64,000 bases of DNA from Clostridia bacterium (lineage in GTDB: Bacteria > Bacillota > Clostridia > CAKSNL01 > HGM11501), in contig JAZQAZ010000014.1 in assembly GCA_045545475.1 (NCBI GenBank), positions 10,938 through 74,937 on the forward strand, given 5' to 3'. Each line of letters begins with the position of its first letter. Within the stretch, counting starts at the first letter, position 1. A program made the translations under genes and the position numbers. The notes under the pieces were generated by a model. It worked only from the letters and a program-made list of their open reading frames with translations. It made no database searches and was not told the origin of the DNA. Of the stretch, positions 5,605 to 18,281 are shown in pieces.

Positions 5605-6987
5605 ATGAAGATTAATTACGGACTTTTAAACGGTGCGGTTTTGCAAAGAGATGAAAATGGTTTTTGCAAGTGCATTTTTGGGGCAGAAGCTTTTGGAGAA
5701 ATAAAAACTTCTTTGGGGAAATTTGAAAAGATTAATGAAAATGCTTATATCCTTTCCGGCATCCCCATAGGTGGACCTTATGAAATAATTATATCGGACG
5801 ATAAGGAAAGCTTAACACTTTCTGATATCTATGTGGGAGATTTATGGCTTTTAGCAGGTCAGTCCAATATGGAAGGGGCAGGAAAACACAGAGGAAAATA
5901 TAAGCTCTACGATGAAAATCCCCTTGCAGATGTCCGCGCCTACTATATGAACGAAAGCTGGGGTGCGGCAAAAACACAGCTTCACCAGCTTTGGGAATCT
6001 ATAGATGAATGCATAAGGGCTCCTTACAGAAACTATAGAAAAAAATCTCCTTGGGGAGAAGAATTCCCAAAGGTGCAAACTGACGGAGTGGGTCCCGGAT
6101 TATATTTTGCTCTTGAAATGAGAAAGCTGACAGAGGGTGTGCCTCAGGGAGTTATACCCTGCGGTGTCGGTGGGTCAAACTTAAAGCAATGGGATCCCGA
6201 TGGGGTTGATAATCTCTATAGTGCTGCAAAACGCCGTGTTAAAGAATGCGGAAGCTACATAAAGGGCGTTTTCTGGCATCAGGGTGAGTCTCAGACCGAC
6301 ATACCGGGAATAGAAAGCTTTATAAGCGATATGAAAAAGCTTGTTTCGGGAATGAGAAGGGACTTCTGTGATGAAAAACTTCCCTTTGTAGAGGTGCAGA
6401 TAAATAAATTTGTGGCGTGCTACAGCGATATTCCATGGAGCAGAACCAGAGAATTGCAACGAATACTTGAAAACTACATAGATAATCTTATAACGGTTTA
6501 TTCTGTTGATCTGGAATTGGATGACCTTATTCATCTTTCGAGCGAATCTCACGAGATACTCGGATTTAGGGCGGCAGAAGCTATGAATTATCTGATTACA
6601 GGAAAAGGCGAGGCGTCTCCCTCCTTTGATTCCTTTGAAATTGTGGAAGATGACTTTGTACCCTTTCGTTCAAATATCCGTGTTAATTTCAAAAACATCA
6701 AAGGGGAACTTACTTCCCTTGGAGTACCGTCCGGATTTTCAATTCACGAAAAGGAAGACGGTGCACCCCTTCGTGCTGTTTCAAGGCTTTGTCTTGAAGG
6801 AGATTCTGTAAGAATTAAAACGGAAATAGATGCTGAAAAGCTGAGCGAATGTTATATATGCTATGGATTCGGCAACAGCTTTTACTGTAATATTACAGAT
6901 ACCGGGAGAAGAAGCATTCCTGCATTCGGACCTCTTAAAATAAAAGATTTTTTGAAAAAGGAGAAAGACTATGGAAGCAATTTATAA
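5605..6987 (+). CDS. Carbohydrate acetylesterase, SASA / DUF303 (sialate O-acetylesterase-like) family
   Basis: GDLWLLAGQSNMEGAG (GQSNMxG motif of the SASA family). No signal peptide. Its start lies 3 nt after the upstream stop. Confidence 0.75.
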   Translation: MKINYGLLNGAVLQRDENGFCKCIFGAEAFGEIKTSLGKFEKINENAYILSGIPIGGPYEIIISDDKESLTLSDIYVGDLWLLAGQSNMEGAGKHRGKYKLYDENPLADVRAYYMNESWGAAKTQLHQLWESIDECIRAPYRNYRKKSPWGEEFPKVQTDGVGPGLYFALEMRKLTEGVPQGVIPCGVGGSNLKQWDPDGVDNLYSAAKRRVKECGSYIKGVFWHQGESQTDIPGIESFISDMKKLVSGMRRDFCDEKLPFVEVQINKFVACYSDIPWSRTRELQRILENYIDNLITVYSVDLELDDLIHLSSESHEILGFRAAEAMNYLITGKGEASPSFDSFEIVEDDFVPFRSNIRVNFKNIKGELTSLGVPSGFSIHEKEDGAPLRAVSRLCLEGDSVRIKTEIDAEKLSECYICYGFGNSFYCNITDTGRRSIPAFGPLKIKDFLKKEKDYGSNL

Positions 6988-8593
6988 AAAGGGTATAAAG
7001 TTTTCCGGCAACACCTATTATAAAGCCGATAAGGCTCGCTATGACATTTATTACGAAGATTGCATATACACCCAAGATAAAGTGTATTTTTCCTATACCA
7101 AATATGAAGGCGAGCCTATGGCGGTGGGCTTCTTTCTGGAAAATTTAGAAAATGTAACTCTTGATTTTAACGGGGCAACCCTGGTTTTTCACGGAAGGAT
7201 AATTCCCTTTATAATCAATAACTGCAAAAATGTAAAACTTAAAAATGTTAAAATAGATTACGACCGACCATTCTATACTCAGGGCAAGGTAATTGAGTGC
7301 GGTGAAGGTCGTATGAAGATAAAAATAGACGAAGGCTTCAGGTACAGAGTGGAGGACGGATTTCTTTATGCGGTAAGCGATATCTGGGAGAAAAAGCTTA
7401 ATTATAACGATTGTCTTCTCTGGCTTTACGACAGTACCGGCGTAAAAGAATATCCCATAATTTTAGGTTTGTTCGGCCCTGAAATATTCCCCTGTGAAAA
7501 ACCGCCCCTTCCCATAAGACAGATTTTAGTTGAAGAAGACGGGGAATACCTGATACTTAAAGGGAATTTCCCAGAAAGATGGGAAGCAAATGAAGGCAAC
7601 AACAGCCTTTTATTCACCCACGAGGTGCGTGATAAGTGTACTGTAATTGTGGTAAATTCGGAGGATACCTTCATCGAAGACTTCATCATTATCCACGGTG
7701 CTTCCTACGGAGTTATGGGTATGAACTGCAAGAATATGTACTTCGATAACTACAGTATGTACATTAATTATGAGGGTAACGGAAGACTTGTAACCAACAA
7801 TGCTGACGGTATTCATATATTCAACTGTAAGGGTGAGTTTGTGCTTAAAAATTCCCATATGGAAGGTCTGCTTGACGATACGGTTAACATCCATAATAAT
7901 TATATAAAGGTAATGAACTTTGAAGGAAAGAAACTTGTATGTAAATTCGTGGGAAAGAACGTGAAAATTGATTGCCCCATATTTGTTAAAGGAGACCGCA
8001 TTGCAATATATCGGGGCAGAACTCAGGAGAAAAGAGGAGAATACACCTTAGAGGATATTTTACTTGATTCTGAAAACGAACAGTTTGTATTTACTCTGGA
8101 TAAGGAAGTCGAGTACGTAGAGACCGGTGATATTGCAGAAAACCTTTCAAGTAATCCTACGATATTAATAGAAAATTGCAGGTTTGGTCGATTCAGAGGT
8201 ACGATGCGCCTGCAAAGCCGAGCTAAAACCATAATAAGAAACTCAGTATTTGATAATAAAACCGAGTCCGTAATTTTTACCGGTGATACAACCTATTGGT
8301 ATGAGTCGGGGCCGGTTAATGATTTTTTAATGGAAAACTGTAAATTGTTGAATACGGAATATTGTGCAAAAATTAATTTTTTAGGTGAAGTGGAATTTAC
8401 AGACAAGGAACCATATTATCATAAAAATATAACAGTGAGAAATTGTTATTTTGATAAGGGTAGAATCATTAATATAAACCACGTTGATAATTTCGTTTTT
8501 GAAGGAAATACTTCCTGCGGAGAAATGGAAATCTACGCAAGAGACTGCGGAAAATTAACCTCGGACGAAAATGTAGTGGTTCACTATGAGTAA
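6971..8593 (+). CDS. Right-handed parallel beta-helix repeat protein (putative glycoside hydrolase or polysaccharide lyase)
   Basis: 540 aa, cytoplasmic. Repeated NxDGIH / NNYI / NC-rich beta-helix-like segments (NADGIHIFNCKG, VNIHNNYIKV). Overlaps the upstream esterase by 17 nt, so likely in the same operon. Confidence 0.5.
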   Translation: MEAIYKKGIKFSGNTYYKADKARYDIYYEDCIYTQDKVYFSYTKYEGEPMAVGFFLENLENVTLDFNGATLVFHGRIIPFIINNCKNVKLKNVKIDYDRPFYTQGKVIECGEGRMKIKIDEGFRYRVEDGFLYAVSDIWEKKLNYNDCLLWLYDSTGVKEYPIILGLFGPEIFPCEKPPLPIRQILVEEDGEYLILKGNFPERWEANEGNNSLLFTHEVRDKCTVIVVNSEDTFIEDFIIIHGASYGVMGMNCKNMYFDNYSMYINYEGNGRLVTNNADGIHIFNCKGEFVLKNSHMEGLLDDTVNIHNNYIKVMNFEGKKLVCKFVGKNVKIDCPIFVKGDRIAIYRGRTQEKRGEYTLEDILLDSENEQFVFTLDKEVEYVETGDIAENLSSNPTILIENCRFGRFRGTMRLQSRAKTIIRNSVFDNKTESVIFTGDTTYWYESGPVNDFLMENCKLLNTEYCAKINFLGEVEFTDKEPYYHKNITVRNCYFDKGRIININHVDNFVFEGNTSCGEMEIYARDCGKLTSDENVVVHYE

Positions 8594-8783: not shown

Positions 8784-9275
8784 ATGCAAAAAACGGTCTG
8801 CGCAGACGTTTTTAAGCATGATATGACCAATAAATACTTCGATATGGTATACCGTCTGGCCTTAAACCAGATGAAGGATAAACACATGGCCGAAGATGTG
8901 ACTCAGGATGTATTCGTAAAATACATAAATTCCGACAAGGATTTTGAAAGTGAAGAACACGTTAAAGCGTGGCTCATAAGGGTTACGGTAAATATGTGCA
9001 AAAATGTGTTCAATTCAGCATGGTATAAAAAATCGGCACCGCTTGAGGAAGATATTCCGGAGGAAGAAAAAGAAATAAGCGACTTGTATGAAGAAGTTTT
9101 AAAGCTTCCTAAAAAATATAAGGCGGTAATCCACCTCTTTTACTACGAGGATATGCCGATAGCGGATATTGCAGCATGCCTTGGCGAAAAGGAATCCACC
9201 ATAAAAAGCCAGCTTCATAGAGCGAGGGAAATACTTAAAAAAACGCTGAAAGGAGGATGCGACTATGAATTTTAA
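8784..9275 (+). CDS. RNA polymerase sigma-70 family (ECF-type) sigma factor
   Basis: 163 aa. Region 2 (DVTQDVFVKYI...WLIRVTVNMCKN) and region 4 HTH (YYEDMPIADIAACLGEKESTIKSQLHRAREILKK). Confidence 0.85.
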   Translation: MQKTVCADVFKHDMTNKYFDMVYRLALNQMKDKHMAEDVTQDVFVKYINSDKDFESEEHVKAWLIRVTVNMCKNVFNSAWYKKSAPLEEDIPEEEKEISDLYEEVLKLPKKYKAVIHLFYYEDMPIADIAACLGEKESTIKSQLHRAREILKKTLKGGCDYEF

Positions 9276-10275
9276 GGAAAGCTATAAAAAAGCAAATGAC
9301 GAAATTACAGGAGACAGAGCACTTCTTGATAAAATATTAACTACTCCGGTAAAAGAAAAAAAGAAAATTTCACCGATTGTCTACAGGTTTGCATCCTGTG
9401 CGGCGGCGATATTACTGGTGGGTGCGATAATACTGATGCCTGAAATGAAAGAAAAGTTTATTACAGAAGAAAAAGCAAACGCAAGCGAAGAAGCCAAAGA
9501 AGAAGCTTCTGCAACTATCCTGGCAGATGTTGCGGAAGAAACGGAAGAAGTATATGAAGAGGCATATGACGGTCATACAAGCGTTGAAACGGAAACAAAT
9601 GAGAAAACTAAAACTACTGTAAAAAAAGAAAAAGCGGCAGAAACTTCTGAGAGCGTGGTGGCTACAGAAAATTACGCAAACGAAGAAGCGACAAATTCTG
9701 CACTTACGGAAGATGGGGTTGAGGCTGCATCTGATGAAACAGCCTTCAGCATATATTCTCGCAATGACGAGGAAGATTTTGGAAAAGCAGAGGGACTGAA
9801 GGGGGCAGAAACTTCAGCAGCATCTGAGGAAGTGCAACCTTCGGAATCGGCAGAGCCTAAGATTAAATTATCTTCGGGCGGAAGCGGAGGAGGTTCTTCA
9901 GCAAGAAGTGCGGCGGTGTATGACGATAGCGAGGATGCTGACGTCTTAAGCGTTTCCGATATAATTGGTCATATAGGAATAAACGAAAATAGTCTTGTGC
10001 CATTAAACATGACACTTATTAATTCAGAAGTATCTTATTTTGAATTTTCTCCCGAGGGAAATATTACGGCATATGAGATAAATATGGTTTTCGAGCAGAA
10101 TGATGCAAAATTGATTATTCGCCTTACGGATTCTGCAACGCCTCTTGAATTTAATGTGGCGGGGGATGCAGGGATGATTTCGGCGTCGAAAACCATTGGT
10201 AAAACTGATATTTTTATAACGGCATACAATCTTACTTTTGAAGATGTGGAAAACTACGTAAACAGCATAGCTTAA
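9265..10275 (+). CDS. Putative anti-sigma factor, single-pass membrane protein with acidic low-complexity ectodomain
   Basis: Overlaps the sigma gene by 11 nt. Short cytoplasmic N-terminus, one TM (IVYRFASCAAAILLVGAIILMP), then a long E/A/T/S-rich region and a C-terminal globular domain. Confidence 0.6.
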   Translation: MNFKESYKKANDEITGDRALLDKILTTPVKEKKKISPIVYRFASCAAAILLVGAIILMPEMKEKFITEEKANASEEAKEEASATILADVAEETEEVYEEAYDGHTSVETETNEKTKTTVKKEKAAETSESVVATENYANEEATNSALTEDGVEAASDETAFSIYSRNDEEDFGKAEGLKGAETSAASEEVQPSESAEPKIKLSSGGSGGGSSARSAAVYDDSEDADVLSVSDIIGHIGINENSLVPLNMTLINSEVSYFEFSPEGNITAYEINMVFEQNDAKLIIRLTDSATPLEFNVAGDAGMISASKTIGKTDIFITAYNLTFEDVENYVNSIA

Positions 10276-10287
10276 GGAGGCGTTGGT

Positions 10288-12327
10288 ATGAAAAGAATAA
10301 TGTCATTGTTACTCATATTTGCACTTGTTTTTTCCGTAACGGCTTTTGCCGAGGAAAACGAAAATATGAAGGAAGTGCTTATGTCTGTAAAGGAAAGAAT
10401 TCCGGATACGGAGGAGTTTGAAAACTTCGAAAGTACGGAAAGAACGAGGAACGGCATTACAACCTATACCTTTATGTGGTATAATTCCGGTGAGGACTAC
10501 AGGGAAATGTCGGTAAGGGCAACGGAGAGCGGGCTTATTACAAGCTATAACTTCTACAAAAACGAAAAGTATGAAACTAAACCTTCTATAAATAAGCCGG
10601 AAACAAAGGACTTTCTGGAAAAGGCAAAGGAGCTTTCAAGAAAAATGAATCCTTCCGTAAGCGACAAAATTGAGGTGAGCGTAAGAAGCGGATATGAAAG
10701 CTTATATGACAGGGAGTATTCATTTATCCTTACGCACAAAGAAAACGGAATACCTGTTTACGGAAACACAGGAAGCCTTACCATTGCCTCCGACGGTGAA
10801 ACGCTTACAAACTATTATATAAATTACACAGAGGGAGTCCCTTATCAAAAGCCCGATAAGGCAATCAATCGTGAAGAAGCCGAAAAAGCCTATGCTTCGG
10901 AAATAGGAATGAATCTTGAATACCGCACGGAGTATGAAGAAAGAGAACGCAGGGTTTACCTTTCATATCTTCCCGAAAGAACCTACGGCGTATATATTGA
11001 CGCCTTTACGGGAAAGGCAATTGAGCCTGGCGAAGCCACTGTGGAAACCTTCGGTACGATAACGGAAGAATCAGCGGCAGCAGACAAAGGCGTGGGAGGA
11101 ACCAATTCCGCAAACCGCTTTTCCGAGGCGGAGCTTAAGGAATTTGCAAAGCTTGAAAACTTGATTTCAAAGGAAAAGGCGGAAAAAATCATAAGAGACC
11201 TTAAGGTTTTAAGAGATGATAAGGCAACACTTAAAAATATTTCTACAAGCCGTGACTATTACGACGAAGAAAAGTATTACTATTCATTAAGCTTTGAGGG
11301 CGAAAACTATTATTATGCAAGTGCAAAAATAGATGCCGTAACCGGTAAGGTATTAAACTTCTATCAGGATTCCGATTATAAAGAAGTTTCCGAAGAAGAC
11401 AAGGAAGAAATGGAAAAGAAAATAAACGGCTATCTTGCACTTCTATGCCCCGGTGAAACAGGCGATGACAAAGAATACAGAATGACAGGCGAAAATGGAA
11501 ATATCACAAGCAGCAATTACACACGTTATGTCAATGATATTCCTTATGGTAACGACAGAATCAGAATTGAAGTAAGCGGTTCTGACGGCAGCTTAAGAAG
11601 CTATTCTTATACAAAAACAGATTTGGAATTTCCGTCTCCCGAGGGAATAATAACAGAAGATGTTGCCGCAGAAAAAATGTTTGACTTAACAGAATATAAA
11701 ATGTATTACTATCCCGTAACGGGCGATGATGGCAAAATAAAGGGAAGCTTCCTTTTATATATGCTTGAAGAGTCTGTGGAAATCGATGCGTTTACAGGAG
11801 AAAGAATCCTTGGTTATGAAGTCCTGGAAATCCCGGAGTATACAGACATCAAAGGACACTTTGCCGAAGAAGCAATAACTGTGCTTAAGAAGTTTGGTAT
11901 AGGCTTTGCAGAAAGCGAATTCCGCCCAGATGAAATAATCACACAGAAGGATTTTATAAGCCTTCTTACATATGTGGTGAAGAGACGCTCGACAATTATT
12001 CTTGCCAAGGAATACGATGCGGAAGACACATATAACAGTGCTTATAATTATGAAATCCTTACGAAAGCAGAAAGAAAAGACGATTCAGAGGTAAGAAGAG
12101 TTGATGCGGCTGTTTATTTTATCAGAGCACTTGAACTGGAAGAAGTTGCATCGCTTCCCGGAATATATAACTGTCCGTTTAATGATGTTTCCGACAAGAC
12201 AGGATATGTGAGCATCCTTTACGGACTTGGTGTAGTCAATGGTGACGGAACAGGATTGTTCTATCCCGAAAAGGGAGTGACTCGCGGTGAAGCCGCAGTT
12301 ATGATTTATAACTACTTGTCAAGATAA
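10288..12327 (+). CDS. Secreted cell-surface protein with PepSY-like repeats and C-terminal SLH domains
   Basis: Signal peptide MKRIMSLLLIFALVFSVTAFA. Y-rich PepSY-like repeats. Two C-terminal SLH-like motifs (HFAEEAITVLKKFGI..., FNDVSDKTGYVSILYGLGVVNGDGTGLFYPEKGVTRGEAAVMIYNYL). Confidence 0.7.
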   Translation: MKRIMSLLLIFALVFSVTAFAEENENMKEVLMSVKERIPDTEEFENFESTERTRNGITTYTFMWYNSGEDYREMSVRATESGLITSYNFYKNEKYETKPSINKPETKDFLEKAKELSRKMNPSVSDKIEVSVRSGYESLYDREYSFILTHKENGIPVYGNTGSLTIASDGETLTNYYINYTEGVPYQKPDKAINREEAEKAYASEIGMNLEYRTEYEERERRVYLSYLPERTYGVYIDAFTGKAIEPGEATVETFGTITEESAAADKGVGGTNSANRFSEAELKEFAKLENLISKEKAEKIIRDLKVLRDDKATLKNISTSRDYYDEEKYYYSLSFEGENYYYASAKIDAVTGKVLNFYQDSDYKEVSEEDKEEMEKKINGYLALLCPGETGDDKEYRMTGENGNITSSNYTRYVNDIPYGNDRIRIEVSGSDGSLRSYSYTKTDLEFPSPEGIITEDVAAEKMFDLTEYKMYYYPVTGDDGKIKGSFLLYMLEESVEIDAFTGERILGYEVLEIPEYTDIKGHFAEEAITVLKKFGIGFAESEFRPDEIITQKDFISLLTYVVKRRSTIILAKEYDAEDTYNSAYNYEILTKAERKDDSEVRRVDAAVYFIRALELEEVASLPGIYNCPFNDVSDKTGYVSILYGLGVVNGDGTGLFYPEKGVTRGEAAVMIYNYLSR

Positions 12328-12358
12328 GAACCATTCTCATATTGTTTTTCTCCTTAGA

Positions 12359-12389
12359 AAAAGGGACGTGCTTGGCGCGTCCCTTTTTT
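12359..12389 (+). terminator. Rho-independent terminator
   Basis: gggacgtgc-ttg-gcgcgtccc hairpin followed by TTTTTT. Confidence 0.8.
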
Positions 12390-12410
12390 CTTGACTATAC
12401 ATGGGATTTA
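12382..12410 (+). promoter_or_regulatory. Predicted sigma-A promoter for the TIR-TPR gene
   Basis: TTGACT, 17-nt spacer, TAAAAT, immediately after a terminator. RBS AAGGAGGGG precedes the ATG at 12456. Confidence 0.45.
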
Positions 12411-12455
12411 TGGTAAAATGGCATGGGTTTACCTTAAGATAAAGGAGGGGTATTT

Positions 12456-14645
12456 ATGGCTGATTTTAAAATTAAAACCAAAAATCAGGTTGAAATTGAA
12501 AAAAAGCCAAGGGTATATTTTACCTGCCATCCTGAAGATTTTGAAAAAAGTTTTGATAAAATATGTAATGACATTTTTTTGTGTCATGATTGTGCTATAT
12601 ATTATGCCGAAGATTTGACTGAACGGATTGAAAAAGAGGAACGTGAGATAGAGCTTGGAAGAAGCAACTTGCTTGTGGTTCCGGTTACATACAAGCTTTT
12701 GTCCACAAAAAACCGTGCCATGGATGAGGATGTTCCCTATGCAATAAAAGAGCATATTCCCATTCTTCCGATTATGATGGAAAGCGGAATTGAATCATTG
12801 TATTCCATGGCAGATAAATTTGGCGAGATGCAATATCTTAATCCATACGGATATGATAAAACAGAAATTCCATATGAAGAAAAGCTGAGAAAATATCTAG
12901 AGTCTGTTCTCATAAGCAGCGAACTTGCAGAGGCTATAAGAGCAGCTTTTGATGCATACATATTTTTAAGCTACCGTAAAAAGGACCGCAAGTATGCCAA
13001 CGAGCTTATGAAGCTTATACATAAAAACCCCGAGTGCAGAGATATTGCAATATGGTTTGACGAGTTTTTGACTCCGGGAGAAAATTTCAATGAGAACATT
13101 GAGCGTATATTGAAAGACAGTAAGTTGTTTACACTTCTCGTTACTCCGAACTTGCTTGAAAAGCCAAACTTTGTATTGGATAAGGAATATCCTGCGGCAA
13201 AGGAAGCTGAAATCGGCATTCTCCCAGTGCAGATGGCGGCAACTGATAAAAAAACTTTAGATGAATGCTTTACAGACTTGCCACCCTGTATTGACGCATG
13301 TGAAGATAAACTTTTCAGGGAACGTTTGCTTGGTGCAATAACAGGTCTTGCTGTAAGAGAAAACGATTCTCCGGAGCATAATTTTCTTATAGGGTTGGCA
13401 TATTTTGACGGCATTGATGTGGAAGTTAATCGTGAACTGGGAATAAAGCTTATTACTTCAGCGGCAGAAGAGGGACTTCTTGCGGCAATGCAGAGGCTGG
13501 CTTTGTTATATGAAGACAGGGATTATCATGAAGCCATAAAGTGGGCTGAAAGGATAGTGGACTATTACATAAAGCAAAACGGGGAAGAATACGGAGATAC
13601 ATTAACGGCACTTGGCAATCTGGCGTTGCTTTATGACAAGGCGGGAAAAAGTAAAAAAGCACAGGAAGTGCATGAAAAGGTATACGAAATACGGTGCAGA
13701 ACGCTGGGAGAAGAACACTGTGACACTGTTACAACGCTGAATAATATGGCGGTGTCATACGATAAGTCCAGGAATAGCAAAAAAGCTCAGAAACTTTACG
13801 AAAAAGTTTATAAACTGCAATGCAAAATACATGGAGAAGAACATCCGAACACTTTGGCGGCACTGCATAATCTGGCTTTATCCTACGGAAATACAGGAGA
13901 TTACAGAACTGTACTTGAGTATATGAAAAAAGTTTATAGTCTGGAGTGTAAGATACTTGGCGAGGAAAACAGCGAAACATTGATTACTCTTAACAATGTT
14001 GCAGGAACCTATGCAAATCTTGGCAACTATAAAAGAGCACTGAAAATTCTTGAAGAAGTGTATTCCGTAAGATGCAGGGTGCTTGGGGAAGAACATCCCG
14101 AAACGCTGACAACGCTTAATTTGATTTCCGGTGTTTATGCTAACCTTGCAGAGTATGAAAAAACGATGGAAACAGTCAAAAAGGTATATTCTTCGCAATG
14201 CAAAGTGTTGGGAGAAGAACACCCTGTGACGCTTATAACGCTAGGCAATATGGCGATGGCCTATGGATATAAAAAGGAATACAAAAGAGCACATGAGTTG
14301 CTTAATGAAGTTTATGCTAAGCGATGCAGAATACTTGGTAAAGAGCACCCTGATACCCTTATAACCAGGGAATATCTTGCTGACAGTTATTCTTTTTCAG
14401 GAGACAGCAAAAAAGCTGTTGCGATACTTGATGAAATATATGCTGTGAGACTTAAAAAGCTTGGGGAAAAACACCCTGAGACCATTACAACCATGCATGA
14501 TCTGGGAAGAAATTATATTAAGCTGGGCGAATACAAAAAGGCGTCGGTTATACTTAAAAAGGCATACAACCTACGTTGCGGTACACTTGGAGAAAATCAC
14601 CCGGATACATTGGAAACGCTGAAGTTTTTGGATATGCTTCTATAA
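12456..14645 (+). CDS. Tandem TIR-like domain protein with C-terminal TPR array (KLC-type TPR_10/12 repeats)
   Basis: 729 aa. Two internally duplicated TIR-like modules (RVYFTCHPEDFEK...SNLLVVPVTYKLL...IPILPIMM and YIFLSYRKKDRKY...IAIWFDEFL...KLFTLLVTPNLL...IGILPVQM). These are followed by about 9 TPR repeats with the recurring LGEEHP[DE]TL[TI]TLNNLA..Y motif. Confidence 0.7.
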   Translation: MADFKIKTKNQVEIEKKPRVYFTCHPEDFEKSFDKICNDIFLCHDCAIYYAEDLTERIEKEEREIELGRSNLLVVPVTYKLLSTKNRAMDEDVPYAIKEHIPILPIMMESGIESLYSMADKFGEMQYLNPYGYDKTEIPYEEKLRKYLESVLISSELAEAIRAAFDAYIFLSYRKKDRKYANELMKLIHKNPECRDIAIWFDEFLTPGENFNENIERILKDSKLFTLLVTPNLLEKPNFVLDKEYPAAKEAEIGILPVQMAATDKKTLDECFTDLPPCIDACEDKLFRERLLGAITGLAVRENDSPEHNFLIGLAYFDGIDVEVNRELGIKLITSAAEEGLLAAMQRLALLYEDRDYHEAIKWAERIVDYYIKQNGEEYGDTLTALGNLALLYDKAGKSKKAQEVHEKVYEIRCRTLGEEHCDTVTTLNNMAVSYDKSRNSKKAQKLYEKVYKLQCKIHGEEHPNTLAALHNLALSYGNTGDYRTVLEYMKKVYSLECKILGEENSETLITLNNVAGTYANLGNYKRALKILEEVYSVRCRVLGEEHPETLTTLNLISGVYANLAEYEKTMETVKKVYSSQCKVLGEEHPVTLITLGNMAMAYGYKKEYKRAHELLNEVYAKRCRILGKEHPDTLITREYLADSYSFSGDSKKAVAILDEIYAVRLKKLGEKHPETITTMHDLGRNYIKLGEYKKASVILKKAYNLRCGTLGENHPDTLETLKFLDMLL

Positions 14646-14669
14646 AATTCGGATAAAAGGAGAGAGAAA

Positions 14670-15131
14670 ATGGAAAGAATACAAAGCTTTTCCGTGGACC
14701 ATGATTTTATCAGTCCCGGAATTTATGTGTCAAGAATAGACGAAGATATTACCACTTATGATTTAAGAACGAGAAAACCTAACGCAGGCTTTTATATGGA
14801 TAATGTAACCATGCATACTGTGGAACACATGCTGGCTACGTTTTTCAGAAATTCCGAAATAAAGGACGATGTTATATATTTCGGCCCTATGGGATGTCAG
14901 ACGGGATTTTATCTTCTTTTGAGAAATGCGGATAATGAAAAGACTTTGTCGGTTCTTAAAGATTGCTTATCTAAGGTTTTATCCTATGAGGGAAAGGTTT
15001 TCGGTGCGGAAAGAAAAGAATGCGGTAACTACGAAAACTTAAATCTTGATGCGGCAAAGGCAGAGTGCAGAGAATATCTTAACGCTCTTACAAATAAAGA
15101 ACAGACGTTTACATACGAAAAAACACTTTAA
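14670..15131 (+). CDS. luxS: S-ribosylhomocysteine lyase
   Basis: 153 aa. HTVEHMLATF motif (HxxEH metal site) and overall LuxS pattern. Confidence 0.9.
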   Translation: MERIQSFSVDHDFISPGIYVSRIDEDITTYDLRTRKPNAGFYMDNVTMHTVEHMLATFFRNSEIKDDVIYFGPMGCQTGFYLLLRNADNEKTLSVLKDCLSKVLSYEGKVFGAERKECGNYENLNLDAAKAECREYLNALTNKEQTFTYEKTL

Positions 15132-15141
15132 GGAGAAAATT

Positions 15142-15849
15142 ATGATTTCAAAAGCAGATATCGGAATAATTTGTGCGATGGATGTTGAACTCGCCGAGAT
15201 TAGTAGTGCGATGGACATTACCATGCGAAAGAAAATAAGCGGAGTTGAGTTTTTATACGGAAATTTAGCCGGAAAGAATGTGGTTTGTGCTGTTTGCGGA
15301 GTCGGAAAGGTTTTTGCGGCAATTTGCACCGAGGCGATGATTCTTAATTTTGAACCAGGGGTTATTGTAAATTCAGGTGTTGCCGGAGGACTTTCTGAAA
15401 GTCTTTCTGTGTGTGATGCGGTTGTGGCGGAGAGTTTGGTACAGCACGACATGGACACATCTCCTTTAGGGGATCCCGTGGGCCTTTTATCGGGAATAAA
15501 CATTATAAATATTCCCTGCGATAAAAAGGCGGGAGAGGTTCTTAAAAAAGCGGCAGAAGAGCTTTCTATCCATATGGAAACAGGGATAATTGCAACGGGA
15601 GACCAGTTTATTTCAGAAAACGAAAAAAAGGATTGGCTTTGCAAAACCTTTAATGCAAAAGCTTGCGAGATGGAGGGCGGTTCGGTTGCACATGTATGCT
15701 ATGTAAACGGAGTTAAGTGTGCTGTACTCAGAACCATATCCGATGGCGGAAATGATGATGCTAAAATGGATTTTCCCACCTTCTGTAAAAAGGCGGCACA
15801 CAATTCCTGCGAGATTATGAAAAGATTTGTGAGGGATTATAATGACTGA
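15142..15849 (+). CDS. mtnN: 5'-methylthioadenosine/S-adenosylhomocysteine nucleosidase
   Basis: MISKADIGIICAMDVELAEI... and the overall Pfs/MtnN pattern. Starts at ATG 15142 after RBS AGGAGA; the longer ORF from 15046 is likely an over-extension. Confidence 0.88.
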   Translation: MISKADIGIICAMDVELAEISSAMDITMRKKISGVEFLYGNLAGKNVVCAVCGVGKVFAAICTEAMILNFEPGVIVNSGVAGGLSESLSVCDAVVAESLVQHDMDTSPLGDPVGLLSGINIINIPCDKKAGEVLKKAAEELSIHMETGIIATGDQFISENEKKDWLCKTFNAKACEMEGGSVAHVCYVNGVKCAVLRTISDGGNDDAKMDFPTFCKKAAHNSCEIMKRFVRDYND

Positions 15850-16057
15850 CGAAAAGATTTTAAGGATAAATGAGCTTTCTAAAAAAGCTAAAACAGTTGG
15901 ACTTACAGAAGAGGAATTGGCTGAACAAAAGCGTCTTCGTGATGAATATATTGCAGGCTTTCGTGCATCACTTCAGAGAGAACTTGATAATACATATATC
16001 AAGCGACCTGACGGAAGCGTTGTAAAAATTGAGAAAAAAGGAAATAAAAAAAGCTGA
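15842..16057 (+). CDS. DUF896 / UPF0291 family small protein
   Basis: 71 aa. INELSKKAK..GLTEEELAEQKRLRDEYIAGFR, typical of the YnzC/DUF896 family. Overlaps mtnN by 8 nt. Confidence 0.7.
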   Translation: MTDEKILRINELSKKAKTVGLTEEELAEQKRLRDEYIAGFRASLQRELDNTYIKRPDGSVVKIEKKGNKKS

Positions 16058-16078
16058 GGCTTTGCCTCAGCTTTTTTT
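16044..16078. terminator. Bidirectional rho-independent terminator (DUF896 convergent with metA)
   Basis: A-run, then agctgaggc-ttt-gcctcagct, then T-run. Confidence 0.85.
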
Positions 16079-16994
16079 ATTTGATTTCATCAAGATTAAA
16101 GGGTGTTGCCTGATATACAAAGTAGTTAAGCCAGTTTGAGAAAAGTAAATTTGCGTGAGATCTCCAGGAAACCTTGGGGGGATTTTTCGGGTCATCATCG
16201 GGAAAATAATTCTTGGGAACCTGTATATCCTCGCCCTTAGCCTTGTCTCTGTCGTATTCCTTCTTTAAGGTGTCGGCATCGTATTCGAGATGCCCTGTTA
16301 CGAATATTTGTCTGCCCTTATCTGTGGTTACGATACAAACGCCGGTTTCCTCTGAAGATGCTAAAATTTTAAGAGTCCCAACTTTCTCAACGTCTTCTCT
16401 TGCAACTGTAGTGAAACGTGACTGAGGAACCATAAATACATCGTCGAATCCACGAAGGAGCATGGAATTTTTATAGTCTGCCGTATGGGGATATATGCCG
16501 AAAAGCTTTTTTTCAAGGTTTATTTTGTTTATTCCGTAGTGATAATAAAGCCCTGCCTGAGCACCCCAACAGATGTGAAGTGTGCTTGTAACGTGAGTTT
16601 TGCTCCACTCCATAATTTCACAAAGCTCGTTCCAGTAATCAACATCTTCAAAATCCATGAGTTCAACCGGTGCTCCGGTTATAACCATTCCGTCAAACTT
16701 TAAGTCTTCGATTTCGTCAAAGGTTTTGTAAAAGCTTAACATATGAGCACTGTCAACATGGGTTGATTTGTGAGTTGCAGTCTGTAGAAGCTCCATTTCA
16801 ACCTGAAGAGGGCTGTTTCCCAGCAGTCGTGAAAACTGTGTTTCCGTCACGATTTTAGTGGGCATGAGATTTAAAAGAAGTATCTTAAGGGGACGAATGT
16901 CCTGAGTTACGGCACGGGTTTCGTTGATTACGAATATGTTTTCGTTGTGGAGCGTTTCTGTTGCCGGTAGCCCGTTGGGAATTTTAATAGGCAT
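16077..16994 (-). CDS. metA: Homoserine O-acetyltransferase / O-succinyltransferase (MetA/HTS family)
   Basis: 305 aa. [11 protein letters not shown]...[12 protein letters not shown] is the classic MetA N-terminus. Confidence 0.92.
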
Positions 16995-17006
16995 AAATTC
17001 ACCTCA

Positions 17007-18281
17007 TTATAATTGTTTCAGTGCCTGCTCTATATCGGCTATTATATCTTCGACATTTTCTATGCCCACAGACATTCTGATAAGGTCTGAACTGATGCCG
17101 GCATCGATAAGCTGCTGATCTGTAAGCTGACGGTGGGTGGTGGAAGCGGGATGAAGAACACTTGTTCTTGCATCTGCAACGTGAACAACTATTGCAGCAA
17201 GCTTTAAGCTGTCCATAAACTTAACGGCCGCTTCTCGGCCTCCTTTTATTCCGAAGGAGATAACGCCACAGCTTCCCTTGGGAAGGTATTTTTCAGCCAG
17301 TGTATAGTCGGGACTGGATTTTAATTTGGGATAGTTAACCCAGGCGATTTTATCGTTTGCTTCAAGATATTTTGCAACCGCCAAAGCGTTTTCTGAATGA
17401 CGCTCCATACGAAGGGGGAGAGTCTCCAAATTCATATTAAGTAAAAATGCATTTATGGCAGAGGGAAGTGCACCAAAGTCTCTCATAAGCTGAACCCTTG
17501 CCTTGGTTATGTAAGCAGCCTTGCCGAAATCTGCAACGTATTTAACTCCATGATAGGATTCGTCAGGCTCACACAATTCGGGGAATTTTCCGTTATCCCA
17601 ATTGAAATTACCTGAGTCAACAATTACACCGCCAACGACGGAAGCGTGACCGTCCATATATTTGGTTGTGGAGTGGGTGATAATGTCACAGCCAAACTCA
17701 AAGGGTCTGCAAAGTATGGGAGTTGCAAAAGTATTATCAACAACAAGCGGAACATTATGCTTGTGAGCAAGATTTGCAAAACGCTCAATGTCAAGAACGG
17801 TTAAAGCGGGGTTTGCAATTGTCTCACCGAAAACCAGGCGGGTATTCTCATCAAACTGTGCTTCGATTTCTTCGTCAGTCATGTCCTGTGTTACAAAACG
17901 CACCTCAATGCCCATTCTCTTTATGGTAACGGCAAAAAGGTTAATTGTTCCACCGTATATGGAAGAAAGACAAACGAAGTTCTGACCTGCGGATGTGATG
18001 TTTAAAACAGCCATAAGGCTTGCTGCCTGGCCTGATGTAGTGCAAAGTGCACCAACGCCGCCTTCCAGGTCTGCAATCTTTTCTTCAACCGCACTTACTG
18101 TGGGGTTTGATATTCTTGAATACATATGTCCGTCTGCCTTTAAGTCAAAGAGCTTGCCAAGGTGCTCGGACGAATCGTACTTATATGTGGTGCTCTGGTA
18201 AATGGGGAGCACCCTCGGTTCTCCGTTTTTTGGGGTATATCCCGACTGGATACATTTTGTTTCTATTTTATAATCTGACAT
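17007..18281 (-). CDS. metY: O-acetylhomoserine aminocarboxypropyltransferase (sulfhydrylase), PLP-dependent
   Basis: 424 aa. Cys/Met-metabolism PLP fold. N-terminal CIQSGYTPKNGEPRVLPIYQSTTYKY. Confidence 0.9.
   Translation of the reverse strand: MSDYKIETKCIQSGYTPKNGEPRVLPIYQSTTYKYDSSEHLGKLFDLKADGHMYSRISNPTVSAVEEKIADLEGGVGALCTTSGQAASLMAVLNITSAGQNFVCLSSIYGGTINLFAVTIKRMGIEVRFVTQDMTDEEIEAQFDENTRLVFGETIANPALTVLDIERFANLAHKHNVPLVVDNTFATPILCRPFEFGCDIITHSTTKYMDGHASVVGGVIVDSGNFNWDNGKFPELCEPDESYHGVKYVADFGKAAYITKARVQLMRDFGALPSAINAFLLNMNLETLPLRMERHSENALAVAKYLEANDKIAWVNYPKLKSSPDYTLAEKYLPKGSCGVISFGIKGGREAAVKFMDSLKLAAIVVHVADARTSVLHPASTTHRQLTDQQLIDAGISSDLIRMSVGIENVEDIIADIEQALKQL

What the first reader, a model, noticed from the sequence alone, without database searches (positions are those of the whole stretch)
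12456..14645. Stand-alone tandem-TIR + TPR protein with its own promoter, read through into luxS-mtnN
Seen in sequence: two internally duplicated TIR-like modules (the FxSYRxxD beta-A, WFDE beta-B, LLVTPNLL beta-C and ILPV beta-D elements occur twice). These are followed by about 9 KLC-type TPR repeats. A terminator and promoter sit immediately upstream, but there is no terminator before luxS, which starts 25 nt downstream. Established: bacterial TIR domains are NAD+-cleaving effectors in Thoeris and other defense systems, and TPR arrays serve as sensor platforms. Inference: this may be a single-protein sensor-effector immunity gene, or a TIR scaffold. The co-transcription with the activated-methyl-cycle genes (luxS, mtnN) is unexpected.
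Basis: partly seen in the sequence, partly recalled or inferred. Interest (0 to 1): 0.6.

Follow-up and report, generated by a model that had tools for sequence, protein, structure and literature searches.

The report
Tandem-TIR plus TPR immune-like protein
This gene encodes a cytoplasmic protein with a probable NAD-cleaving TIR domain, a divergent second TIR-like domain and a repeat "sensor" tail; it belongs to a large, uncharacterised, multi-copy family of gut Clostridia that looks like an immune receptor, and its position next to luxS is accidental.

Summary
ORF 12456-14645 (729 aa) carries an N-terminal divergent TIR-like module (aa 1-160), a Pfam-significant TIR_2 module (aa 161-300), a Sel1-like linker and 8.75 exact 42-aa KLC-type TPR units. 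It has its own terminator, promoter and RBS upstream. No terminator or RNA structure lies in the 24 nt before luxS.

Module 2 keeps SARM1-like NADase signature residues, including an invariant Glu (E244). Module 1 matches no Pfam model. It has a conserved Asp (D92) at the Glu position and lacks the BB-loop motif.

The protein belongs to a very large family: 2258 clusters at 50% identity and 563 loci in species-representative genomes. Members are restricted to gut Clostridia and are often multi-copy or tandemly arrayed. The tandem-TIR head is conserved (82-92% between neighbouring paralogs), while the TPR tail sits at baseline repeat similarity (28-41%).

No neighbouring gene is conserved. luxS/mtnN is adjacent in 0 of 79 homolog loci, and 0 of 26 luxS relatives have the gene upstream, so that linkage is incidental.

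The best reading is a single-chain sensor (TPR) plus NADase (TIR) immunity protein, related in kind to E. coli TIR-II and BcTir/Tpr (Thoeris VIII). It is a new variant of a known kind. Function is inferred, not shown.

The parts
12357..12389 (+). Intrinsic-terminator-like hairpin ending the upstream SLH/YcdB-repeat gene (10288-12327)
   Evidence: RNA fold gives dG -22.7 kcal/mol, z -5.45, with 0 of 200 shuffles folding as well, followed by a T-run. Sequence shown.
12391..12419 (+). Sigma-70-like promoter: -35 TTGACT (12391-12396), 17-nt spacer, extended -10 TGgTAAAAT (12411-12419)
   Evidence: Consensus scan matches 10 of 12 positions and finds the TG motif. Sequence. This is a consensus match only, not shown to be functional.
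12442..12450 (+). Ribosome-binding site AAGGAGGGG, 5 nt before the ATG
   Evidence: Sequence read directly.
12456..14645 (+). Whole ORF, 729 aa: tandem TIR + Sel1-like linker + TPR array. It has no signal peptide or TM segment, and the N-terminus is hydrophilic.
   Evidence: Homologs start at the same Met and share the N-terminal K-T-[KR] motif (consensus KTKGN) within the first residues.
12456..12935 (+). Module 1 (aa 1-160): divergent TIR-like domain absent from Pfam. Its family signature is FTCHPxD, NRAMxxD and FGxxQY.
   Evidence: No Pfam hit. Homology to module 2. AF2 pLDDT 89.4 and pTM 0.85. Foldseek top hits are TIR domains with TM 0.5-0.65. Mean column identity is 67% across 29 homologs.
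12729..12731 (+). Codon for D92 of module 1, which occupies the position equivalent to the catalytic Glu of module 2
   Evidence: hhalign and BLASTP pair N86 with N238 and D92 with E244. D92 is conserved in at least 90% of homologs.
12936..13355 (+). Module 2 (aa 161-300): canonical TIR_2 domain with SARM1-like signature FLSYRKKD, IWFDEFLTPGENF, LLVTPN and N238-x5-E244-Y-P
   Evidence: Pfam TIR_2 at 40.4 bits against a cut-off of 28. PDB profile hits to AbTir, BtTir, TIR-1/SARM1 and TLR10. Invariant residues listed.
13185..13187 (+). Codon for E244, the putative catalytic glutamate of module 2
   Evidence: Invariant in 30 of 30 sequences. It aligns to the E of 'WVHKE' in TIR-1. Its spacing to the beta-D 'ILP' is 13 residues; by my recollection of the SARM1 sequence this matches SARM1 (inference). 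Alignments to AbTir and BtTir are shifted by 4 and 2 residues.
13356..13538 (+). Helical linker with one Sel1-like unit (aa 301-361)
   Evidence: Pfam Sel1 gives E 5e-4 at aa 311-340, below the cut-off. Many homologs carry PF08238 in the same place.
13539..14642 (+). TPR array: 8 full units plus 1 partial unit of exactly 42 aa (KLC-type, TPR_10/TPR_12), aa 362-729
   Evidence: Pfam TPR_10 E 1e-62 and TPR_12 E 2e-59. The register and the 40% mean unit identity come. There is no DNA-level tandem repeat.
14646..14669 (+). 24-nt spacer to luxS, containing the luxS RBS (AAAGGAGAG, 14656-14664). It has no hairpin and no consensus promoter.
   Evidence: Sequence. Fold energy is 0 kcal/mol. There is no + strand promoter-like site between 14048 and 14669.
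14670..16057 (+). Downstream housekeeping genes probably read through from the same promoter: luxS (14670-15131), mtnN (15142-15849), DUF896 (15842-16057)
   Evidence: Pfam and NCBIfam: LuxS E 3e-47, MTA/SAH nucleosidase at 245 bits against a cut-off of 169, DUF896 E 3e-21.
16042..16082 (.). Bidirectional terminator-like hairpin closing the unit, shared with the convergent metA gene
   Evidence: 19-bp stem. dG -25.8 kcal/mol, z -6.25.

Best explanation
The gene encodes a cytoplasmic, single-chain sensor-effector protein. It belongs to a large, functionally uncharacterised family confined to gut Clostridia (Oscillospirales and relatives).

**Shown**
- The head is two homologous TIR-fold modules in tandem.
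- Module 2 is a canonical TIR_2 domain. It keeps the residues that make SARM1-type TIRs NAD+ glycohydrolases: beta-A SYRK-x-D, a BB-loop W-x-D-E...P-G-E-x-F, and an invariant Glu (E244) in alpha-C.
- Module 1 is a divergent but equally well conserved TIR-like domain. It has Asp in place of that Glu and no BB-loop motif.
- The tail is a variable-length TPR (or Sel1) array.

**Inferred mechanism**
- The TPR array holds the head inactive and binds a trigger, most likely a phage protein.
- Binding releases or oligomerises the head. Module 1 then acts as the built-in non-catalytic partner that regulates or completes the active site of module 2, as asymmetric TIR pairs do elsewhere and as the dead BcTir does for BcTpr.
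- Module 2 then degrades NAD+ and/or makes an ADPR-type product, stopping growth of the infected cell.
- The genome-to-genome and paralog-to-paralog pattern of conserved head and unrelated tail suggests a repertoire of receptors with different specificities.

**luxS position**
The location upstream of luxS-mtnN-DUF896 is a lineage-specific juxtaposition. The housekeeping genes are probably transcribed by read-through from the promoter upstream of the TIR-TPR gene (12391-12419), but they are not part of the system.
For: - **Architecture:**
- **Duplication:**
- **NADase signature:** the invariant module-2 residues are Y173, R174, K175, D177, W200, D202, E203, P207, N238, E244 and P246. The HMMER alignment to TIR-1 places E244 on the catalytic Glu, D202 on the BB-loop Asp and F211 on the BB-loop Phe.
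- **Family size and range:** 542 proteins in the word-indexed search. 2258 clusters at 50% identity, 1301 of them at E<=1e-30, almost all with the module at the N-terminus and lengths of 600-1965 aa. 563 loci in GTDB species representatives, all gut Clostridia MAGs.
- **Multi-copy:** up to 5 copies per MAG among only the 79 loci kept, and a four-gene tandem array in L036.
- **Head versus tail:** adjacent paralogs share 82-92% identity in the head in most arrays (61% in L048), against 28-41% in the tail over alignments of 429-697 aa. Family-wide the figures are 67% vs 40%, with no correlation (r = -0.07).
- **Stand-alone gene:** there is no conserved neighbour. The commonest neighbours are further family members and other TIR_2 proteins.
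- **Precedent:** the single-chain TIR+TPR system 'TIR-II' defends E. coli against phage and needs its TIR active site (PMC11350192). BcTir (dead TIR) plus BcTpr (NADase-TPR) defends via NAD+ depletion (bioRxiv 10.1101/2023.05.26.542521).
Against: - There is no biochemical or phage data for any member.
- Neighbourhoods are mostly housekeeping. Only a few of the 150 neighbours hit defence models: CARF-PDDEXK 2, TIR effectors about 3. No background comparison was made.
- PADLOC and NCBIfam give only sub-threshold hits to ThsB, SAVED-TIR and ThcB4.
- The placement of E244 on the catalytic Glu depends on the reference. AbTir and BtTir alignments put the Glu on V240 or D242, and I could not superpose coordinates.
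- The relative orientation of the two modules is uncertain (pTM 0.57 for the tandem model).
- Low tail identity may partly reflect out-of-register repeat alignment.
Confidence: 0.5

Rival explanations
1. Non-enzymatic scaffold or adaptor. The TIR modules and TPR array mediate protein-protein assembly in a housekeeping or regulatory process of these spore-forming anaerobes, with no NAD+ cleavage.
For: Neighbours are mostly housekeeping. Several members sit directly upstream of housekeeping genes on the same strand: spoVT in 4 loci, metA in 2 loci, and luxS here. There is no defence-island signature. Many TIR domains act as scaffolds (established knowledge).
Against: The invariant residues fall exactly on the NADase signature positions, including E244. 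Multi-copy expansion with a conserved head and unrelated tails is unusual for a housekeeping scaffold. The family is patchy and restricted to certain lineages.
Confidence: 0.15
2. Fused two-step TIR signalling system, a Thoeris-like pathway in one chain. One TIR module produces a cADPR/ADPR-type signal. The other module and/or the TPR array perceives it and executes the response, as in ThsB + ThsI (type VIII Thoeris) or BcTir + BcTpr.
For: The domain order (TIR, then TIR-like hydrolase, then TPR) mirrors the gene order and content of BcTir/BcTpr and of type VIII Thoeris. BcTIR (8fz9) is the best structural match to module 1. MilB and DNPH1 folds appear among the hits. Module 1 is as conserved as module 2 and has its own polar signature (H25, D28, R87, D92), compatible with ligand binding.
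Against: Module 1 has no sequence similarity to BcTIR (no PDB hit at E<=10). The catalytic-looking module is a TIR_2 domain, not a CMP-hydrolase domain. The TPRs here are generic KLC-type units with hypervariable sequence, which fits protein ligands better than one conserved small molecule. NCBIfam Thoeris models are far below cut-off.
Confidence: 0.15
3. Functional partner of the activated-methyl-cycle / AI-2 genes. The TIR-TPR protein is co-regulated with luxS and mtnN because it senses or modulates that pathway.
For: The 24-nt spacing, the absence of a terminator or consensus promoter before luxS, and a shared terminator after DUF896. metA lies next to the homolog in L046 and L056, and 1.4 kb away here.
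Against: luxS/mtnN are within +/-10 kb in 0 of 79 homolog loci. None of the 26 luxS-relative loci has the gene upstream, although luxS-mtnN pairing is common. The family is multi-copy while luxS is single.
Confidence: 0.03
4. Host-directed Tcp-like effector. A gut commensal TIR protein that interferes with animal TLR/MyD88 signalling, as proposed for BtpA/TcpB, TcpC and TirS.
For: All members come from animal-gut bacteria. BtpA and PdTIR are among the structural matches.
Against: There is no signal peptide or secretion-associated neighbour. The protein is large with a cytoplasmic-type TPR array. Multi-copy hypervariable tails are not explained by this reading.
Confidence: 0.03

Closest known systems
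E. coli 'TIR-II' single-protein TIR+TPR antiphage system (Nat Commun 2024, PMC11350192)
   Same: TIR and TPR lie in one polypeptide. The gene stands alone. In TIR-II the TIR active site is required for defence, which acts by cell death or growth arrest. The paper describes it as the most widespread of the E. coli TIR systems.
   Different: About 30% of TIR-II relatives carry an ATPase domain, whereas this family shows none. The paper does not describe a tandem or degenerate second TIR. TIR-II is reported broadly and also in phages, while this family is absent from phage genomes and restricted to gut Clostridia.
BcTir/BcTpr of Bacillus cereus, and type VIII Thoeris (ThsB + ThsI)
   Same: A catalytically altered TIR is followed by a TIR/MilB-fold N-glycosidase fused to TPRs. 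BcTpr depletes NAD+, and its TPR length tunes the output. BcTIR (PDB 8fz9) is the top structural match of module 1.
   Different: That system has two genes, while here there is one chain. Its effector head is annotated as CMP-hydrolase/MilB-like, not Pfam TIR_2. BcTir has Lys at the Glu position, whereas module 1 has Asp. No sequence similarity is detectable between module 1 and BcTIR. Spacing of the N...E motif differs (N82-E86 in BcTpr, N238-E244 here).
SARM1 / TIR-1 TIR domain (NAD+ hydrolase)
   Same: Module 2 shares the beta-A 'SYR[RK]' motif, the BB-loop Asp and Phe, and the alpha-C Glu in the HMMER alignment. Foldseek gives TM 0.6-0.65.
   Different: There are no ARM or SAM domains. E-values are only marginal (0.018-0.07). 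Regulation would be by TPRs rather than by an NMN/NAD-sensing ARM domain.
Bacterial STAND/NLR-like TIR-NTPase-TPR proteins (e.g. Avs-like, FxSxx-COOH system TPR protein NF040586, actinobacterial 'group 6' TIR-TPR proteins, PMC7075850)
   Same: An N-terminal TIR effector with a C-terminal KLC-type TPR_10/TPR_12 sensor array. Paralog expansion with variable repeat number. The NF040586 model matches the TPR part.
   Different: There is no NB-ARC, NACHT or AAA module between head and tail. NF040586 scores 209.9 against a cut-off of 300, over the TPR region only. In place of the NTPase there is a second TIR-fold module.

Membership tests
TIR domain superfamily (Pfam TIR_2, PF13676): module 2 | Score above the curated gathering threshold of the family model | tested here: met
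   40.4 bits against a cut-off of 28, aa 169-264. PDB profile hits to AbTir at E 1e-4.
TIR domain superfamily (Pfam TIR_2, PF13676): module 2 | Catalytic glutamate in alpha-C, required for NADase-type TIRs | tested here: inconclusive
   E244 is invariant and aligns to the Glu of TIR-1 'WVHKE'. AbTir and BtTir alignments place their Glu on V240 and D242. No coordinate superposition was possible.
TIR domain superfamily (Pfam TIR_2, PF13676): module 2 | NAD+ glycohydrolase or cyclase activity | not testable with these tools
   Needs a biochemical assay.
TIR domain superfamily: module 1 | Match to a curated TIR model (TIR, TIR_2, TIR-like, etc.) | tested here: not met
   No Pfam family at E<=1 in any of 29 members. 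No PDB sequence hit.
TIR domain superfamily: module 1 | TIR fold and homology to a bona fide TIR | tested here: met
   hhalign against module 2 gives probability 95.9%, E 5.9e-9. Foldseek top hits are TIR domains with TMt 0.58-0.65.
TIR domain superfamily: module 1 | Catalytic Glu and BB-loop motif | tested here: not met
   Asp (D92) occupies the Glu position. The W-x-D-E...PGE motif is replaced by YY[AT]xD, with no PGE.
Thoeris (ThsB TIR plus a separate effector ThsA/ThsH/ThsI etc.) | A conserved adjacent effector gene in an operon with the TIR gene | tested here: not met
   No conserved neighbour across 79 loci and 527 neighbouring ORFs.
Thoeris (ThsB TIR plus a separate effector ThsA/ThsH/ThsI etc.) | Match to ThsB / Thoeris family models | tested here: not met
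   PADLOC ThsB gives E 3e-4 to 7e-4 at about 18 bits. NCBIfam ThcB4 scores 19.4 bits against a cut-off of 220.
BcTir/BcTpr, type VIII Thoeris | Two-gene operon: a TIR gene plus a CMP-hydrolase(MilB-like)-TPR effector gene | tested here: not met
   Here there is a single ORF. The hydrolase-like module is TIR_2. MilB (4jem) appears only at rank 27 of the fold hits.
BcTir/BcTpr, type VIII Thoeris | Sequence homology to BcTpr/ThsI | not tested
STAND / NLR-like TIR-NTPase-TPR | A central P-loop NTPase (NB-ARC, NACHT or AAA) domain | tested here: not met
   No NTPase family among the Pfam hits on the 729-aa protein. NF040586 matches only aa 335-579 and is below cut-off.
E. coli TIR-II (TIR+TPR single-protein defence) | TIR and TPR in one protein, stand-alone gene | tested here: met
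   The architecture is described in PMC11350192.
E. coli TIR-II (TIR+TPR single-protein defence) | Sequence homology to TIR-II and antiphage activity | not tested
   No sequence is held. Activity needs experiments.
luxS-mtnN (activated methyl cycle) operon | Conserved adjacency of the gene with luxS/mtnN | tested here: not met
   0 of 79 homolog loci. 0 of 26 luxS-relative loci.

The most novel reading that the evidence does not exclude
This would be an NTPase-less, NLR-like receptor repertoire in gut Clostridia. Each genome would carry several copies of one conserved tandem-TIR 'engine' joined to unrelated TPR or Sel1 tails, each recognising a different invader protein. The uncatalogued N-terminal TIR-like domain (signature FTCHPxD / NRAMxxD / FGxxQY, with Asp in place of Glu) would be a new functional class. 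It could be a built-in allosteric partner that replaces the oligomerisation NTPase, or an enzyme or ligand-binding domain with its own chemistry.
Probability: 0.2. Interest if true: 0.75.

Novelty: new variant of a known kind. Interest (0 to 1): 0.5.

Why it matters
TIR NADases are central to immunity in bacteria, plants and animals, and how they are switched on is an active question. This family offers three things if the inferred function is right.

- **A natural single-chain pair.** A catalytic-looking TIR is covalently paired with a degenerate TIR. This could model the asymmetric TIR-TIR activation seen in SARM1, plant TNL resistosomes and AbTir filaments.
- **A large receptor-like family without an NTPase.** It spans about 2,000 clusters at 50% identity, with conserved heads and hypervariable repeat tails. 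It occurs in abundant but poorly studied gut Oscillospirales, where almost no defence systems have been tested.
- **A new domain.** The N-terminal TIR-like domain is missing from Pfam.

The work also removes a false lead, because the luxS/AI-2 linkage is incidental.

Tried and rejected
- **luxS/mtnN partnership:** rejected. tblastn of luxS, mtnN, DUF896, the SLH protein and the sigma/anti-sigma pair against 79 homolog loci found luxS/mtnN in none. A metagenome scan with luxS found 26 relatives, none with the TIR-TPR gene upstream.
- **Defence-island context:** Pfam and PADLOC scans of 150 flanking proteins showed no dominant defence content. This is not decisive, because no background was computed.
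- **Phage origin:** rejected. There was no tblastn hit in 50,697 phage genomes and only 2 IMG/VR contigs.
- **Recent repeat homogenisation of the TPRs:** rejected. TRF finds no 126-nt DNA repeat, and the units are only about 40% identical.
- **Source contig:** exact-sequence look-ups of the TIR-TPR, LuxS and MtnN proteins found nothing on record.
- **STAND/NLR membership:** rejected, because there is no NTPase domain.
- **EngA/EngB GTPase hits:** Foldseek hits of the tandem model to these proteins were dismissed as generic two-Rossmann-like-domain similarity (rmsd 12-17 Å).
Full report
**1. What is there**

The window contains a single long ORF at exactly the reported coordinates: 12456-14645, + strand, 729 aa. 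Pfam assigns a TIR_2 domain to aa 169-264 (40.4 bits against a cut-off of 28). It also finds a dense array of TPR_10/TPR_12 repeats (E 1e-62 and 2e-59) and a weak Sel1 unit at aa 311-340.

The repeats are in perfect 42-aa register. There are eight full units (aa 362-697) and a truncated ninth (aa 698-729), with about 40% mean identity between units. There is no DNA-level tandem repeat.

The gene's surroundings in the window are ordinary chromosomal genes:
- PEP carboxykinase, glycoside hydrolases, and an ECF sigma/anti-sigma pair.
- An SLH/YcdB-repeat wall protein, then luxS, mtnN and DUF896.
- Convergent metA and an O-acetylhomoserine sulfhydrylase-like gene.
- ArsR, an M18 peptidase, a 2256-aa surface protein and a tRNA methyltransferase.

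GC content of the gene (about 0.39) matches its neighbours.

**2. The internal duplication is real, but the copies are unequal**

The first 160 residues match no Pfam family, even at E<=1, in any of 29 family members. They match no PDB sequence either. Four lines of evidence nevertheless show that this region is a TIR-fold duplicate of module 2:
- BLASTP of the two halves gives E 1e-7.
- Profile-profile comparison gives 95.9% probability, E 5.9e-9, over beta-B to beta-D.
- AF2 folds it confidently into a four-stranded alpha/beta domain (pLDDT 89.4, pTM 0.85).
- Its best Foldseek matches in the PDB are TIR domains: B. cereus TIR 8fz9, BtpA, PdTIR, AbTir, SARM1 and plant TIRs. DNPH1 and nucleoside deoxyribosyltransferase, which belong to the same wider fold class, also appear.

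**3. Catalytic residues**

In 30 aligned homologs sharing 52-69% identity, the invariant module-2 residues are Y173, R174, K175, D177, W200, D202, E203, P207, N238, E244 and P246, among others.

The HMMER alignment of the module-2 profile to C. elegans TIR-1 (the SARM1 orthologue, PDB 8p2m) makes the following pairings:

| Module 2 | TIR-1 |
|---|---|
| FLSYRK | FISYRR |
| D202 | BB-loop Asp |
| F211 | BB-loop Phe |
| E244 | Glu of 'WVHKE' (the catalytic Glu) |

The distance from E244 to the beta-D 'ILP' is 13 residues. By my recollection of the SARM1 sequence this is the same as in SARM1.

Alignments to AbTir and BtTir instead put their Glu on V240 or D242. I attribute that to the four-residue-longer alpha-C/beta-D connection of those proteins. 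This is inference, because I could not superpose coordinates.

In module 1 the equivalent position is D92, conserved in at least 90% of sequences, and N86 matches N238. However, the BB-loop signature (W-x-D-E...P-G-E) and the SYR motif are gone.

Module 1 is as strongly conserved as module 2 (67% vs 63% mean column identity). It is therefore functional, not decaying.

**4. The family**

- The head region finds 542 proteins in the word-indexed search. The best 120 share 52-73% identity over the best local alignment. Sources call them only 'TIR domain-containing protein' or 'tetratricopeptide repeat protein'.
- An exhaustive profile search with module 1 alone finds 2258 clusters at 50% identity, 1301 of them at E<=1e-30. 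Nearly all carry the module at the extreme N-terminus with a second, weaker stretch corresponding to module 2. Lengths range from about 600 to 1965 aa.
- In one genome per species, 563 loci encode a relative. All listed loci come from gut Clostridia MAGs (Oscillospiraceae, Acutalibacteraceae, Ruminococcus, Faecousia and others). The hosts are goat, sheep, yak, buffalo, deer, rabbit and human.
- Among only the 79 loci retained, nine assemblies have 2-5 copies. Tandem arrays occur: four in a row in L036, and pairs in L047, L048 and L058.
- Phage genomes have none, and IMG/VR has two contigs.

**5. Conserved head, unrelated tails**

Adjacent paralogs share 82-92% identity over the 300-aa head in most arrays (61% in L048). 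Over the tails they share only 28-41%, in alignments of 429-697 aa. That tail figure is the baseline similarity of any two TPR units.

Family-wide, heads average 67% identity and tails 40%, with no correlation between the two (r = -0.07, 98 pairs). Tail length varies from about 3 to 15 or more recognisable 42-aa units. Some tails lack KLC-type units altogether and are Sel1-type instead.

This is the pattern of an effector module recombined with diversifying recognition modules.

**6. Context**

There is no conserved neighbour. Among 527 flanking ORFs the largest cluster is further family members (25 ORFs in 10 loci). Next come BspA-type LRR proteins, other TIR proteins, SpoVT, ABC transporters and RyR-domain proteins.

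PADLOC hits among 150 neighbours are sparse: CARF-PDDEXK 2, TIR effectors about 3.

luxS, mtnN and DUF896 are absent from all 79 loci. Conversely, 26 metagenomic loci with LuxS relatives (58-87% identity) often keep the luxS-mtnN pair but never have the TIR-TPR gene upstream. The closest of these (L080, 87%) keeps luxS-mtnN-DUF896, but its contig ends 50 nt upstream of luxS, so that junction is unresolved.

The luxS linkage is therefore lineage-specific and incidental.

**7. Transcription signals**

- Upstream there is a strong hairpin plus T-run at 12357-12389 (dG -22.7 kcal/mol, z -5.45).
- A near-consensus promoter with an extended -10 lies at 12391-12419.
- A strong RBS follows.
- Between the stop codon (14643-14645) and luxS (14670) there are 24 unstructured nucleotides carrying only the luxS RBS.
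- No consensus-like + strand promoter occurs in the last ~620 nt of the gene.
- The next strong hairpin is at 16042-16082, after DUF896.

Read-through into luxS-mtnN-DUF896 is thus the simplest reading. It remains an inference, and a weak internal promoter cannot be excluded.

**8. Mechanism proposed**

I propose a single-chain sensor-effector, working as follows:
- The TPR/Sel1 tail binds a trigger, most likely a phage protein, and controls the head.
- Module 2 is the NAD+-cleaving enzyme.
- Module 1 is a built-in non-catalytic TIR partner that regulates or completes the active site.

Shown here: the architecture, the duplication, the residue conservation, the family size, the copy number, the head/tail contrast and the lack of operon partners. 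Inferred: NADase activity, the trigger, the role of module 1 and the immune function.

Precedents exist in the literature:
- E. coli TIR-II is a stand-alone TIR+TPR protein that defends against phages and needs its TIR active site (PMC11350192).
- B. cereus BcTir/BcTpr pairs a Glu-to-Lys TIR with an NADase-TPR protein whose TPR length tunes its output (bioRxiv 10.1101/2023.05.26.542521).
- Type VIII Thoeris pairs a TIR with ThsI, a CMP-hydrolase-TPR effector (bioRxiv 10.64898/2025.12.03.692087).

**9. Comparison and membership**

- Module 2 is a member of Pfam TIR_2. Module 1 is a TIR-fold homolog outside every curated model.
- The protein is not a Thoeris component. It has no partner gene, and its ThsB/ThcB4 scores are sub-threshold.
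- It is not a STAND/NLR protein, because there is no NTPase.
- It is not a BcTir/BcTpr operon, because it is one chain with a TIR_2 head.
- It works like, and may be related to, TIR-II-type single-chain TIR-TPR defence proteins. Sequence relatedness to TIR-II, BcTpr and ThsI could not be tested.

I found no paper describing a tandem TIR-TIR-TPR family in Clostridia.

**10. Verdict**

This is a new variant of a known kind. Interest is moderate (0.5). It would be higher if the N-terminal TIR-like domain proves to be a new regulatory or enzymatic class, and if the family proves to be an NTPase-less receptor repertoire.

Noticed in passing
L036:444-12334 (JAFSBG010000033.1, goat rectum Clostridia MAG): Four family members lie head-to-tail in one array (932, 987, 1197 and 800 aa). 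Their heads share 82-92% identity while their tails share about 28-41%. The same MAG has a fifth copy on another contig (L035).
   Followed up: partly
window 16077-18281 (-); L046:2668-3696; L056:3-272: metA (homoserine O-acyltransferase, HTS family) lies 1.4 kb downstream of the gene here. It lies immediately upstream of the TIR-TPR homolog, on the same strand, in two other loci. This is a recurrent but unexplained proximity to methionine-pathway genes, possibly residual synteny in a sub-lineage.
   Followed up: partly
L001:11967-12608 and three other loci (+1 position, same strand): In four loci the gene immediately downstream of the TIR-TPR homolog is spoVT (Pfam SpoVT_C + MazE_antitoxin/AbrB fold). 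This parallels the luxS situation here, with the family member at the head of a housekeeping gene.
   Followed up: no
L080:1-52 (closest luxS relative, 87% identity): The contig ends 50 nt upstream of luxS. That short stretch carries an extended -10-like TGGTAAAAT, the same nonamer as in the promoter upstream of the TIR-TPR gene in the window (12411-12419). The TIR-TPR gene may have inserted between an ancestral luxS promoter and luxS, or the motif may simply be common in this organism.
   Followed up: partly
P0121 (1903 aa): One representative protein contains two complete heads (four module-1-profile stretches, the best at aa 938-1092). It is either a fusion of two tandem paralogs or a missed stop or frameshift in the assembly.
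   Followed up: no
L003:12476-12751 and two other loci: Small proteins of about 90-100 aa with a RyR (ryanodine-receptor) domain flank family members in three loci (Pfam RyR, best E 1.9e-39). Their function is unknown.
   Followed up: no
window 8784-12327 (+): An ECF sigma factor, a probable anti-sigma protein with an acidic low-complexity region (no Pfam hit), and a 679-aa YcdB/YcdC-repeat + SLH cell-wall protein form an apparent operon. It ends at the terminator just upstream of the TIR-TPR promoter.
   Followed up: partly
window 20770-27540 (+): A giant 2256-aa ORF with F5/8 type C (discoidin) and InlB B-repeat-like domains. It is probably a surface adhesin or carbohydrate-binding protein.
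   Followed up: no
window 6971-8593 (+): A 540-aa ORF downstream of a glycoside hydrolase and a SASA-family esterase has no Pfam match at E<=1e-5.
   Followed up: no
L001:6848-9695 region and L027:7302-9797: Other unrelated TIR proteins lie near family members. One is a roughly 385-aa protein with two TIR-like 'FLSHSH/FISYA' units, and another is a protein of about 1738 aa beginning with a TIR. TIR_2 was the commonest Pfam family among neighbours (6 of 150).
   Followed up: no
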